Origin: Azolla caroliniana
Taxonomy: Eukaryota > Plantae > Polypodiophyta
Direction of reading: 5' to 3'
Length of the DNA: 64,000 nucleotides
Assembly (NCBI GenBank): GCA_043228905.1
Contig: JBHGNT010000007.1
Coordinates: 5,332,001-5,396,000, forward strand
Positions 22,801-57,900 of the stretch are shown piece by piece. The position numbers were made by a program, and so were the translations under genes. A model generated the notes under the pieces. The model did no database searches. It was not told where the DNA came from and saw only the letters and a program-made list of their open reading frames with translations. Position 1 is the stretch's first letter. The number at the start of each line of letters is the position of its first letter.

Positions 22801-25075
22801 ACATCGGAATGTATCAAGTCGAGCTTGTTCTGACTTCGGTTACGCTCGTTGGGGAAAGGAAGTTGGTGTTGCTTCCCTAGCTGGCAGGCTTCACAAATTT
22901 GTGCCTTCTGGCCACTAAATTTGGGCAATCCGAACACCACCTGTTTCGATTGCAGGTCCTGAAGCCGTTGATAGTTAACGTGGCCTATCCGCTTGTGCCA
23001 TAAGTCGATATCTGACTCGACTTTTTGTCCTTTCGCGAACATTGTGATACCACCGTCACTAGAGTCGAGGATAAACATCCTCTTGTCTCTAGGCCCTTGC
23101 GCAATAACTTGGCCTTCTTCCTCAATGAAGCACCCAAGATGCGTGAACTGGACTTGCATCCCCTGGTCGACGATCTGATTAACCGACACCAGATTCTTCG
23201 TGATTGTTGGGACGTGTAACATGTTCATAAGTTTCCCTTTTTGCCCGACATGGCTTAAGGGAACTTCACTGACATTCGCGATCAGATGCGGAGTGTCGTC
23301 TCCGGTTGTGACTACTCTCGGTTGCATCGGTTTCTCAAGGTATGAGAACCACTCCTTGTGGCGCGTTGTCATGAAGATTTTCGTCCACGAGCGGAAACCC
23401 GAGCAACGAGAGCCAAAGAGCGATGTGCAACGTTGCACACGTACATAATGTATTTGTAATAATAATAGGGGAAAAGGGTATGGTGTTAGAAATGCCCCGT
23501 AAGATCCCTAAGGTATAAAGGCGATGTGGTCTTGTGCGCACATCCACGCGCGAGAGAGAGAGAGGTACTATGTGGTACATAGGTACCTAGTTGTTTGTGA
23601 GGAGGTGGGAGTTAAGGGGCCATCAATCTCACCCTCCCCAAATCAAGGCAAATATCCCCTTTGAATGAAAGGGGATATTTTAGTCTCGTTTTTGTAAACG
23701 GTCTTCCCTCCTTGTGCTATAAAATGAGAGGGAAGGCACCATTGTGGGGTTGCCTATTTTGAGTGTGCGAGGTATACCACATAGGTCGAGTGTTAGGGTT
23801 AGGGTTAGGGATTTGAGTAGTCGTTTGGTGCGGCCTATGCGGCCACCATTTTGTAATCGTTCATTTCGTTTTAATACATCCTGTTGTTCATCTTGTCTCC
23901 ATCTTCCTCTTGTTCGATCTAGTCTCTTGTTCATTCTTCTTCTTCTTGAGCAAAGCTTCCATTCCGTGTCCGATTCCTTCTCCTCTACTCCTTAGTCCAA
24001 GACCCCCGTGGTCCCGCCCTTCTCCACGCACGCGCATAGCAACGCGACAACGTCATGTGGTTTGATGCGCCGGAGTCGACGTACCACACCTCGTCCAACT
24101 TCGGGGTGATCTTCTTCATCGAGTTTCTTCGTGTCTCGTCACGAAGACTGACCCTTTTCCGGGTCCTTCGGCGTAGTGCGATCACTGCCGATTTCCTTAG
24201 TTGTTCTATCCGGAGCCTGATCCAGACCTCGTTCTCTCCGAATCGGCACTCTTTTTCCAGCACTCGCTCTCCCTATGGCCTTTCTTGCCACAGTACTAGC
24301 ATTCCGCGACGGATTTTCCTTGCCGGTTCTCGTCGCCTCGACTCCCCCTGTTTTCGGAGGGTCCGGAATTGCTGTCGGCATCACTTCGGTCCTGCTCTTG
24401 TCGGCCACTACCATTGCGAGCCGACCTGCCTCGTCCACCACACCCACGGGGTCGATCCGCCTCCATGTATAGCATTCGGATGTCAGTGGGTGCACTTGTT
24501 GACGCACCGACGTGGTTCTCCTCTACAAGGAGCATCGACTGTAAGTCGAAAAATGACGGCATATTCTCCCTCGTACAGACCGCCGTTCGGAAAGCTCCAA
24601 ACTTAGACGCTAACCCGCCAAGACAAACCTGCACCATGTCATCCTCAACGTTCACGTTGACAGAGGCGAGTGAGTCACAAATTTCTTTAATCTTGGTGGT
24701 GTAGTCAGCCACCGACATATCTCGTTGTCGTACATTGCTCAACTCTTGCCTGAGTTGAAGCTTCCTAGCTGTAGTGCTTGCAGCGAAGACCTTTTTCAGA
24801 TTTCCCCAAGCTTCTTTGGGCATCTTGGCATCTCAGATATGGCTCAACAGCTGGTCTCCGACACTGGACGCAAAGCAGTACATCACTTTGCTTGCCGCTT
24901 GTTCCCACACAGGGAAGTCCTTGTGTGTCGCATCAGGTGTTGTGTCGTTAGCTCTGTCGACATAGCTCTAGTGACCATGCCCAAGCAGGTACTGGTGCAT
25001 CTTGTAAGACCAAGATGCGTAGTTGGTTCTATCGAGCTTCTCCACCGGGAGCGAGCTAGCCATTCCTCTGTCCAT
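19808..25075 (-). pseudogene. Copia A gag-PR-IN-RT-RH polyprotein with multiple stops, interrupted by a solo LTR
   Basis: MDRGMASSLPVEKLD start; protease [73 protein letters not shown]. Confidence 0.92.
23367..24049 (+). mobile_element. Gypsy solo LTR 1 (683 bp) inserted in the Copia A protease
   Basis: TGTCATGAAGA...AACGCGACA termini shared with Gypsy B, C and E. Flanks GCGT/ACGT. Host frame NHMT|RHKEWF rejoins on removal. Confidence 0.92.
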
Positions 25076-54974: not shown

Positions 54975-57900
54975 TGTGGCGTTGTTACGCGCGTGCGTAT
55001 AGAAAGGAGGGACCACGGGGGTCCTGGACTAGGGAGTGACGGAGCACAGGAAGTCGTGCTTCACCCTCTTCGGGGCACCCCAGGAGCACACCGGAAGCAA
55101 CCGACCGAGAGAGATAAAGAGAGGGAGACAGAGAGGGAGCGCGCGCTTGACACCGACTCACGCACACACACACACACACACATCGACCCGACTCACGCCC
55201 TTATGTGCAGGAAACGCAGGAAAGGGGAAGCACCCGACACCAACAGAGACACGAGTATACACAGACAGACGCAAAAGTATGTATTACAAGGGAAAGAATA
55301 CAACCCCGGCTTCGAGCCGGACCAAGCTAGGGTAGGTTACAACAGCAGTTTGTAGCCAAGCCGCCGTCTGGGGAGCTCTCGGGCTCGTCACGCAGAGCAG
55401 GGTCTTGCACAGGAGACCGAGCGGGAACAACCCTCCACAGTCCACCCACACCGCAAAGAAGAGGAAGAAGAAGTAGAAGAACTAACCCTAAATCTAACGG
55501 TATACCCTCTAACACAAAATGGGCAACCCCTCTACAAGGGACCATCCCTTCCTTTTATAGAACAAGGAGAGGGATGCGTTACAATGTGGGATAAATCCTG
55601 ATTTACATGGGATTCTTCATCCCGACTTGACTCTTATTATTCACACAATTACATGAGTGTGAGTGCACATGGTGCACCCCGCCGATGTAGCCAATATTTC
55701 CCGGTTTCTGCCTCTGGACGAAATTCTTCACGACATCCGCCCCCACCTAACCGCATGTCCACTGGTACGTGCCAAATCCGGTGAAGGGTGAGAGATTTCG
55801 GCCGGTGAGAAACCGGTCTTCCGTAATCCGCATCCCGGCTCGCTGTCGGTTTGAATCGTCGGCTGCGATTCTCCCTTCACGCTTACCTCTCCGTAGGCTT
55901 GTTCGACCCGTCGATGGGTCCTTCGCCGTGATCTCCGTAGTACGCGTACTTCCGCTGGGCCTTGTTCAGCCGTATGCACGCTCCGTTCTCCGCCGTACAT
56001 CCGTTGCCCTTCGCTTGAGGAACGCCCGTTGTGGCCCGCCTGGCCTCCGTCGACCATTCATGTCGTCCTGATCGTCGTCCCACATTGTTCCCCGCCGCAT
56101 TCGTCCCCTTGCTGCCACCTTCCTTCTCCTTGGTCTTACGTCGCTACGTCAGCTCGGACCGCCAAGGCCTTCGGAACTGTCTGGAGGTTCCTTCTCCGGT
56201 CTTCTACGCACGACCTCCGAACCGGGCGACCCATTCTTCACGCTCACCTTTCCGGTCCGGCACCTCCGTGTGCCGTCTTCCGCTTCCTTTGTTCGGCGCC
56301 ACCTGTGCCGAACACCGTCCCGTAGTCACGCTTCGATCCGGCCCGCGATGGCCCCTTGCGAGACTCTTGTTCTGCTTCGTTTCTTTGCTTGCCGAAATTC
56401 AGGGTATCTTTGTTTGAGTCCCTCCCGGATTTTCCTCGTGTCTTCCGCGTAGTCGGGTCTCGTTTCCCGCCGCCACCAACCTCTCTTGGTCTCATGTTAC
56501 CACGTTGGCTGAACAACCAGAGTCTCTGGTTTGGTGTGGGGATCCCATAGGACTGGACTTCCTTATGCCCACTCACCTTGTCGGAAGGTTTGAGATGGTT
56601 CGTAGCCGCCTTGCCGACCTGATACCTTCTTTCTCTGCTTCCGTCGTCCGATCACGTTCACCTGCCGCCACCGATCTCCCCTATAGGACTCACGCCGGCA
56701 CTCGGGCTGACCGCCGGATCGGTGTGAGGATCTTCGTGGGACCTCGGTTTGCCCGCCCTTGTCCCCCCGCCGCCACCGTCAGTATCTTGATCTTACGCCG
56801 ACCGCGCTGTTGACTGCCGAAGTCTCTAGATCCGGTGTGAAGGATCCTCCTTGGGCTCCTCGTATCCTTGACCCTTATCCCGGGTCTTTCTTCTTTCGCA
56901 AGTCGAGAGGGTGGCTTGCTCCACACCCTCTCCCATGGTACCGACGTACCGTGTTCCCGGCCTCTTCGTAGGCCTGCTCTCTTCCTCCCTCCCGGAATGG
57001 TTATCTGGGAGTCCGCTCCGCCCGGTTCTCGTCCGGGTCCGTTCGTCATTCCCCGGATTGCCGGGTCCCGTTTTCCTGTCGCCACCGACCTCTCCTATAG
57101 GACTCACGCCGGCACTCGGGCTGACCGCCGGATTGGTGTGAAGATCTCATGGGACCGGTCTTTGTTCTCCTCTTCATCCCCGTACTTCTCCGTAACTCGT
57201 CGCCGCTCTCCTTGCTGCATTCCCGCCTCCATCTTCCATCTCTTTCGGTCTTACGTTGCCCCGTCGGCCGAACAACCGTAGTCTCCGGATAGGATGTGGC
57301 GTAACCGATTTCGCAACGTCTTTCGGCAACTCGTCTGGGCCACCGCCCCCTTTAGTGGTGTCAGTGGATAGCATCTGTTTTGTGATCAATCAAGCCCCAC
57401 CTGAGCTTGATTCTCCAATGTTCGGAGTTTCGGCTCCGATGCCGATCTTGCCAGACTCTTTCCGAACCTCTGATCACCCTCCTTCCAATTCTCGACCTTC
57501 GCCTGGTCGGTCTTTCTCCCCATGTAAAAGAGGGCGGCTCGTCCCGCACCCTCTCCCGTATCGGCACCTTTATGCTGAATCCGGCCCCGATCGAACAATC
57601 CACGACTGGATTACGCTCCACCCGTATCGGAGCGTCGCGTGGTTCGGTTCCCGGTCGGGTCGTTCCTTGGTCAAGAGGGCGTTTTGTTCCGCACCCTCTC
57701 CCGTGGTACCGTGGTACCGACCTTCCGTCATCGCGTGGGGCAAGTCCGTCTCCTCAGTCTCGGCTTGCGACCTTGATCTTTCCTCTTCCTCGAGCATCGC
57801 CTCGAGAGCTGCGTACGCCTTCGCAATCCTGGCCCCAACGCTGACCCTTGCCGACTCTCTTTGTTGTTCGGCCTCTTCTCGCTGTGATGGCATGCCGTCA

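What the first reader, a model, noticed from the sequence alone, without database searches (positions are those of the whole stretch)
23363..54978. Gypsy family that appears to integrate specifically at CG-centred 4-bp sites (NCGT), always inside Copia coding sequence
Seen: five independent insertions of one family have these flanks: solo LTR 1 GCGT/ACGT; B ACGG/ACGA; C ACGT/ACGT; solo LTR 2 ACGT/ACGT; E ACGG (one flank only). In each element's own orientation every flank reads NCGT. The Copia elements here instead have ordinary AT-rich 5-bp TSDs (AAAGT, ATAAA, GAATC). If CG occurs at about 1/16 of positions, 5/5 is roughly a 1-in-a-million event. The integrase ends after the GPY module with no chromodomain. 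Established: plant LTR elements usually make 5-bp TSDs with weak preference; sequence-specific 4-bp TSDs are known for Drosophila errantiviruses (e.g. ZAM and tirant at CGCG). Inference: the host DNA here is CpG-poor and young TEs are CpG-rich, so a CG-reading (possibly methyl-CG-reading) integrase would steer the element into other retrotransposons. That would be a chromodomain-independent safe-haven or hyperparasite strategy.
Basis: partly seen in the sequence, partly recalled or inferred. Interest (0 to 1): 0.82.

Follow-up and report, generated by a model that had tools for sequence, protein, structure and literature searches.

The report
CG-targeting Phygy-type retrotransposon, already described
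This jumping gene inserts almost always at a CG pair of bases, but that habit was already published for the moss Phygy lineage to which it likely belongs, and across the genome it shows no special liking for Copia elements.

Summary
The CG-centred 4-bp target is real, holds genome-wide, and is already published. All five window flanks are as described. Genome-wide, 6,008 of 11,809 exact LTR starts follow CGN; 3,265 others are internal polypurine-tract junctions. Of 59 flanks not selected on CG, 54 are CG-centred, against 3.65% background. The motif is palindromic VCGB (ACGT best, TCGA avoided), not oriented NCGT. REXdb (PMC6317226) reports 4-bp NCGN duplications in 100% of 186 Phygy elements, a tRNA-Trp primer site and no extra domain. 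This family matches those features and has 45-68% identical Physcomitrium patens Gag-protease relatives. It is 7.0 kb, shorter than the published range, and no tree with REXdb references could be built. 'Always in Copia' fails: 16 of 70 sites lie in Copia, 14 in the family itself, 12 in other Gypsy, 26 unassigned. Local CG density at sites equals that at random CG sites (p=0.56), so CG supply alone explains the lean towards transposons. Methyl-CG reading is untested and unsupported.

The parts
23363..24053 (+). Solo LTR 1 (23367-24049, 683 bp) with 4-bp flanks GCGT/ACGT, inside Copia element a (gag-pol)
28223..35273 (-). Element B, full length (28227-35269, 7,043 bp); flanks TCGT/CCGT in its own orientation; inside the Gag zinc-knuckle region of Copia element b
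34609..35269 (-). B 5' LTR (661 bp), 1 difference from the 3' LTR
34588..34605 (-). B primer-binding site complementary to the 3' end of host tRNA-Trp
32439..34205 (-). B gag-protease reading frame (588 aa stop to stop, DUF4100), overlapping pol by 40 bp
28960..32478 (-). B pol frame (RT, RNase H, integrase with HHCC, DDE, GPY and a weak SH3 match; no chromodomain, no extra RNase H family detected)
28888..28899 (-). B polypurine tract
28227..28887 (-). B 3' LTR (661 bp)
38379..45431 (+). Element C (38383-45427, 7,045 bp; LTRs 38383-39037 and 44745-45427, 3.8% apart; coding frames broken into pieces); flanks ACGT/ACGT; inside the RNase H region of Copia element b
50401..50927 (-). Solo LTR 2 (50405-50923, 519 bp) with ACGT/ACGT, inside Copia element c
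54971..59119 (-). Element E: 3' LTR 54975-55735, shortened 2.8-kb interior without pol, PBS 58554-58571, truncated 5' LTR 58576-59119; one flank (CCGT in own orientation), inside the pre-integrase region of Copia fragment d
19284..25515 (-). Host Copia element a (duplication AAAGT, 3' LTR end inverted)
26912..46854 (+). Host Copia element b (duplication GAATC), holds B and C, itself nested in Copia c
26243..52534 (-). Host Copia element c (duplication ATAAA), holds Copia b and solo LTR 2

Best explanation
This is an abundant non-chromovirus Ty3/gypsy clade, likely the Phygy lineage, that duplicates 4 bp at palindromic VCGB sites (best ACGT), and its integrase likely reads the CG by sequence alone, so it lands wherever CG is available. 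Shown: the target motif, the 4-bp duplication, the tRNA-Trp primer site, the lack of a chromodomain, a site distribution that tracks CG density, and no Copia excess. Inferred: like the foamy-virus intasome (4-bp stagger, published consensus VYRB, kink at the central YR step), the integrase bends the target at its centre and has narrowed YR to CG. Candidate base-reading residues are the conserved R922-G923-E924 after the second catalytic Asp (E924 aligns with foamy-virus Ala188) and conserved basic residues before the GPY motif (K1100, R1104). Because CG is depleted in much host DNA and abundant in young TEs, the element drifts passively into TE islands. Flanks later decay by C-to-T change.
For: Genome counts: 11,809 LTR starts, 6,008 after CGN, 3,371 after CGT, 1,781 after ACGT, 7,109 after YRN, 3,265 after the strict PPT. 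In the first 100 matches on C1, 62 are external flanks: 51 CG, 9 CA/TG, 2 other. All 16 insertions closest to B's LTR are CG-centred; 17 of 21 paired ends match exactly at 4 bp, 3 differ by one base, 1 spans an assembly gap. Position 1 is A 56-59% and T 3%; position 4 is T 41-48% and A 0-3%; background NCGN has T 34% at position 1. PBS matches tRNA-Trp in 6 of 6 loci scanned. REXdb Phygy row: 4 bp (100%) NCGN, tRNA-Trp 81%, no extra domain. P. patens Gag-protease fragments are 45-68% identical while two other Gypsy proteins from this genome give no match to them. Metagenome relatives (53-94% integrase identity): 33 of 80 loci show the Trp PBS and 4 of 4 outer 5' flanks are CG-centred. Site CG density has median 18 per 300 bp against 17 for random CG sites (p=0.56) and 9 for random positions (p about 6e-10). 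Best PDB match is foamy-virus integrase; its VYRB consensus and central kink are in PMC4422553. R922 94%, G923 95%, E924 88% conserved in 133 relatives.
Against: No direct placement among REXdb Phygy sequences: the FASTA and element table were too large to read, and the P. patens proteins are not labelled Phygy. In the protease tree the window elements and the P. patens rows are separate supported groups on an unresolved fork with Riccia and Adiantum rows. Length 7,043-7,045 bp is below the published 7,656-9,968 bp. The host test rests on 70 non-random sites, 26 unassigned; background includes TEs younger than some insertions, which could mask a TE excess; p-values use subsampled, non-independent background sites. 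Chara relatives read DRGA/SE rather than DRGE, and their target sites were not examined. The residue assignment rests on one pairwise alignment with a gap nearby.
Confidence: 0.82

Rival explanations
1. The integrase reads methylated CG, or works with a methyl-CG reader, and so steers the element into silenced TE DNA: a chromodomain-free safe-haven strategy.
For: 44 of 70 sites have a TE-type host. CG-poor host DNA (o/e about 0.4) and CA/TG decay of flanks (1,101 non-CG YR flanks) point to CG methylation in this genome. No chromodomain.
Against: With one library, LTR-TE hosts are 26 of 70 sites (37%) against 45% of background CG sites, and local CG density equals that of random CG sites. 18 of 70 sites (26%) lie in CG-poor flanks (10 or fewer CG per 300 bp), the same share as random CG sites. 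Flank decay shows methylation after insertion, not before. Drosophila ZAM integrase binds and nicks CGCGCG in vitro (PMC2527525 abstract); that Drosophila lacks CpG methylation is recalled. No methylation data were available.
Confidence: 0.1
2. The family specifically parasitises Copia coding sequence.
For: 5 of 5 window insertions are in Copia coding regions.
Against: 16 of 70 genome-wide sites are in or beside Copia, 14 in the family itself, 12 in other Gypsy including a chromovirus, 1 in a LINE-like RT, 1 gag-like, 26 unassigned. Same-library share is 8 of 70 against 20% expected from CG sites (binomial p=0.10, direction opposite). The window's TE island is a nest of Copia, so its five sites are not independent. 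In P. patens, Phygy-in-Tcn1 pairs were the most common repeated nestings (PMC6911290 passage).
Confidence: 0.02
3. The target habit and primer site are shared, but this is a sister lineage to Phygy rather than a member, part of a wider Chara-to-fern clade with possible fungal (Ylt1-like) relatives.
For: Shorter than published Phygy; unresolved backbone; relatives in Riccia, Adiantum, Ceratopteris and Chara; Gag look-alike clusters are mostly Basidiomycota (a lead only).
Against: REXdb defined Phygy from one species, so its size range is narrow by construction. TSD length, TSD motif, PBS and domain content all match. Phygy domains have since been called in a liverwort (PMC12885004 passage).
Confidence: 0.12

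Closest known systems
Phygy (REXdb non-chromovirus Ty3/gypsy clade of Physcomitrium patens; Neumann et al. 2019, PMC6317226)
   Same: 4-bp NCGN target duplication, tRNA-Trp primer site, no chromodomain or extra domain, coding region filling most of the interior; P. patens Gag-protease fragments 45-68% identical.
   Different: 7.0 kb against 7.7-10.0 kb; different host; here the motif is refined to palindromic VCGB with TCGA avoided; about 8,000 exact outer LTR starts; clade membership not tested against labelled references.
Prototype foamy virus intasome (PMC4422553)
   Same: 4-bp stagger; published duplication consensus VYRB has the same V and B edges; best PDB sequence match (E 5e-21).
   Different: PFV accepts any YR centre with weak bias; this clade is nearly restricted to CG. 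It is a retrovirus, not a relative at family level.
Drosophila errantivirus ZAM (PMC2527525)
   Same: Gypsy-type integrase with a CG-centred target (CGCGCG) read by the integrase itself.
   Different: Insect lineage, longer recognition site; no kinship tested here.
Selgy (REXdb, Selaginella)
   Same: Short non-chromovirus with 4-bp duplications.
   Different: tRNA-Ala primer site, 4.4-6.7 kb, no NCGN preference reported.

Membership tests
Phygy (REXdb) | 4-bp target-site duplication | tested here: met
   17 of 21 paired ends identical at 4 bp, 3 one-base mismatches, 1 assembly-gap pair; empty-site alignments
Phygy (REXdb) | NCGN target motif | tested here: met
   54 of 59 unselected flanks; 6,008 genome-wide
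Phygy (REXdb) | tRNA-Trp primer-binding site | tested here: met
   PBS matches the 3' end of host tRNA-Trp(CCA) in 6 of 6 loci scanned, of 64 pattern matches
Phygy (REXdb) | No chromodomain, no archaeal RNase H, no extra ORF domain | tested here: met
   Pfam scans of B's frames show none
Phygy (REXdb) | Length 7,656-9,968 bp (descriptive, P. patens elements only) | tested here: not met
   B 7,043 bp, C 7,045 bp; the paper calls size relatively insignificant for classification
Phygy (REXdb) | RT/RH/INT form one clade with REXdb Phygy references (the formal definition) | not testable with these tools
   Reference FASTA unreadable. Indirect: unlabelled P. patens Gag-protease fragments are 45-68% identical and in the same broad group
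Chromovirus (Tcn1, Galadriel and others) | C-terminal chromodomain on integrase | tested here: not met
   No Chromo match up to E 1 on the last 146 aa
Selgy (REXdb) | tRNA-Ala primer-binding site | tested here: not met
   PBS is tRNA-Trp
Fungal Ylt1-like lineage | RT/INT clade with Ylt1 | not tested
   No reference sequence at hand; Gag look-alikes in Basidiomycota are a lead only

The most novel reading that the evidence does not exclude
Phygy is not a moss oddity but an ancient streptophyte lineage (Chara, liverworts, mosses, ferns) whose integrase has turned the generic bend-at-YR rule into true CG recognition through a conserved D-R-G-E catalytic-loop motif, and it prefers the methylated form, giving a chromodomain-free route into silenced DNA.
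Probability: 0.1. Interest if true: 0.7.

Novelty: new member of a known kind. Interest (0 to 1): 0.17.

Why it matters
As it stands this extends a published lineage trait to another genome and refines it (VCGB; site choice follows CG supply; about 1.6-fold passive lean to LTR-TE DNA, 45% of CG sites against 29% of bases). The one open point of value is mechanism. Phygy is the only plant LTR lineage that REXdb lists with a sequence-specific target, and my searches found no study of how its integrase reads CG. Element B, with near-identical LTRs and an uninterrupted pol frame, shows the clade moved recently here. If methyl-CG were read, it would be a new targeting route and a sequence-selective integrase of practical interest.

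Tried and rejected
Oriented NCGT motif: rejected, the motif is symmetric. Copia specificity: rejected. A special mechanism behind mismatched duplications (B, solo 1): not needed, since young copies elsewhere match exactly and B's change is a C-to-T type change in one copy. The L006/L007 mismatch is an assembly-gap duplicate of the L003 site; L006's 5' flank was left out of the logo and final density test but is still among the 59 unselected flanks. L027, L038, L045, L058 and the window's own loci were not used in the host count, and L054's 3' side was dropped as a degenerate PBS. Loci L061-L090 were picked on CGN, so they count for host class only. Two 3' flank candidates in metagenome loci were not counted: one CTGC beside an old LTR, one TCGA probably inside an LTR repeat; this corrects the '5 of 6' in my notebook. 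A named Phygy reference could not be obtained: REXdb files too large, cluster members without organism names, no RLG3 sequence in the PMC7466625 supplement text that was searchable, long cells being cut, ESM Atlas pol clusters without taxa. The paper search for 'NCGN' listed mostly kidney-disease papers among the 30 of 93 shown. The RT-RH tree only separates this clade from two other host Gypsy elements on very long branches. No fold or complex prediction was run.
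Full report
Observation. Aligning the four two-sided empty sites to paralogous Copia copies in the window fits a 4-bp duplication each; the paralogues of B's site read NCGG, so one of B's copies changed after insertion. 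All five interrupt Copia coding sequence. The Copia elements carry 5-bp duplications GAATC, ATAAA and AAAGT, the last with one copy inverted. The five are not one family in the strict sense: LTRs differ by 18-30% and the B and C interiors are 77% identical.

Anatomy. B is 7,043 bp with 661-bp LTRs one base apart. It has a gag-protease frame (DUF4100) and an overlapping, uninterrupted 1,172-aa pol frame with RT, RNase H and integrase. The integrase ends after a GPY motif and a weak SH3 match; no chromodomain appears up to E 1. The primer site pairs with the 3' end of host tRNA-Trp: the pattern hits 64 places, and 6 of 6 scanned are tRNA-Trp(CCA) genes. C has broken frames. E has lost pol and its 5' end and lies in a 6,388-bp near-perfect tandem duplication.

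Genome-wide target motif. The 523-Mb genome holds 11,809 exact copies of the 11-base LTR start. 6,008 follow CGN, 3,265 follow the strict polypurine tract and are internal, 7,109 follow YRN. I resolved the first 100 on contig C1 fully: 28 strict and 6 degenerate PPT, 2 ends of a related family beside a Trp PBS, 2 non-LTR matches, and 62 outer flanks, of which 51 are CG, 9 CA or TG and 2 other. Among loci fetched by LTR similarity, not by flank, 54 of 59 flanks are CG-centred; four of the five others are one transition away. All 16 insertions closest to B are CG-centred. Background for a CG centre is 3.65% in 600 kb of evenly spaced genome. The edges are symmetric: A or C first, T rarely (3% against 34% in background); T, G or C last, A rarely. 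Genome-wide 3,371 of 6,008 end in T and 1,781 are ACGT, against 23% and 5.7% expected. The motif is VCGB, not oriented NCGT.

Where it lands. I classed 70 insertions outside the window (not a random draw: best LTR matches plus the first sites on C1) by homology and Pfam: 16 Copia, 14 the family itself, 12 other Gypsy including one with a chromodomain, 1 LINE-like, 1 gag-like, 26 unassigned. With the same library applied to sites and background, Copia holds 8 of 70 sites against 20% of CG sites (bootstrap 14-27%), the family itself 14 of 70 against 17%, other Gypsy 4 of 70 against 8%; none differs significantly. CG count in the 300 bp beside a site (median 18) matches random CG sites (17, p=0.56) and exceeds random positions (9, p about 6e-10). 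So the element leans to CG-rich TE DNA only as far as CG supply predicts. Limits: 70 sites, many unassigned, background that includes later arrivals, approximate p-values.

Lineage. RT-RH, integrase and Gag-protease searches return relatives from Riccia, Adiantum, Ceratopteris, Chara and many unnamed metagenome contigs, and three P. patens predicted proteins at 45-68% identity over 150-278 residues. The host is therefore likely a non-seed land plant (inference; host genes not examined). In 80 metagenome loci, 33 show the same Trp PBS and 4 of 4 recoverable outer 5' flanks are CG-centred. The protease tree puts the window elements, P. patens, Riccia and Adiantum rows on one unresolved fork.

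What is known. Neumann et al. 2019 (PMC6317226; passages, section 9, two supplements read) state that Phygy elements have an insertion preference for NCGN. Their table gives 186 elements, 4 bp (100%) NCGN, tRNA-Trp 81%, 7,656-9,968 bp, no extra domain. The element table and FASTA of that paper could not be read and would settle membership. PMC6911290 (passages) finds 4-bp duplications typical of Phygy and Phygy nested in Tcn1 Gypsy elements in P. patens. PMC12885004 (passages) calls Phygy domains in a liverwort. PMC7466625 (passages and supplement search), PMC6839031, PMC9033089 and PMC2864245 (passages) added nothing on target motifs of this clade. PMC2527525 (abstract) confirms that ZAM integrase binds and nicks CGCGCG. 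The tirant claim was not checked beyond the search listing.

Mechanism. Shown: 4-bp palindromic VCGB duplications, no chromodomain, site choice tracking CG density. Inferred: the integrase's best PDB match is foamy-virus integrase, whose 4-bp duplication consensus is VYRB with a sharp kink at the central YR step and base contacts from Ala188 and Arg329 (PMC4422553, abstract and passages). VCGB is that pattern with the centre narrowed to CG. In the pairwise alignment Ala188 falls on E924 of a D-R-G-E-L motif conserved at 88-98% in 133 relatives; K1100 and R1104 before GPY are 100% and 95% conserved. These are candidates only. Methyl-CG reading is neither needed nor excluded; the CA/TG flanks show decay after insertion.

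Verdict. Real, strong and already described: a new member, probably of Phygy, with the published NCGN habit. The Copia-parasite reading fails. What remains open is how the integrase reads CG and whether methylation matters; searches of an open-access library found no such study. Interest 0.17.

Noticed in passing
window 52767-64000, continuing to about 65540 in L109: A 6,388-bp head-to-tail duplication, 99.94% identical, carrying Copia fragment d and element E, followed by three 250-bp repeats of E's LTR interior; could be very recent or an assembly duplication.
   Followed up: partly
window 18962-19618: The 3' LTR end of Copia a is inverted together with its AAAGT duplication copy.
   Followed up: partly
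L097 and L104 (G000:C1 about 206250 and 5774814): A related LTR family whose 3' end is the reverse complement of this clade's 5' start, followed by the same tRNA-Trp PBS.
   Followed up: no
L114:600-1172 (G000:C2 about 15.729 Mb): Two LTRs head to head with the same outer flank across a 100-N gap; looks like one insertion site assembled twice.
   Followed up: yes
G000:C8 17.80-17.82 Mb, C16 4.99-5.11 Mb, C5 10.11 Mb: Clusters of a tRNA-Trp 3'-end motif, about 1.2 kb apart on C8; probably tandem tRNA-Trp gene arrays, the primer this family uses (one C5 copy confirmed).
   Followed up: partly
L110-L111 (about 20-27 kb past the window end): Another full-length-looking member of the clade, 81% identical to B's interior, and a second E-like shortened interior nearby.
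   Followed up: no
window 6491-6952 (-) and 11243-11869: A protein-kinase exon in the AT-rich, CpG-depleted host segment, and a long TATATG-type microsatellite.
   Followed up: no
window 32439-34205 (B Gag-protease): ESM Atlas look-alikes with DUF4100 are mostly Basidiomycota clusters, hinting at a link with fungal Gypsy elements.
   Followed up: no
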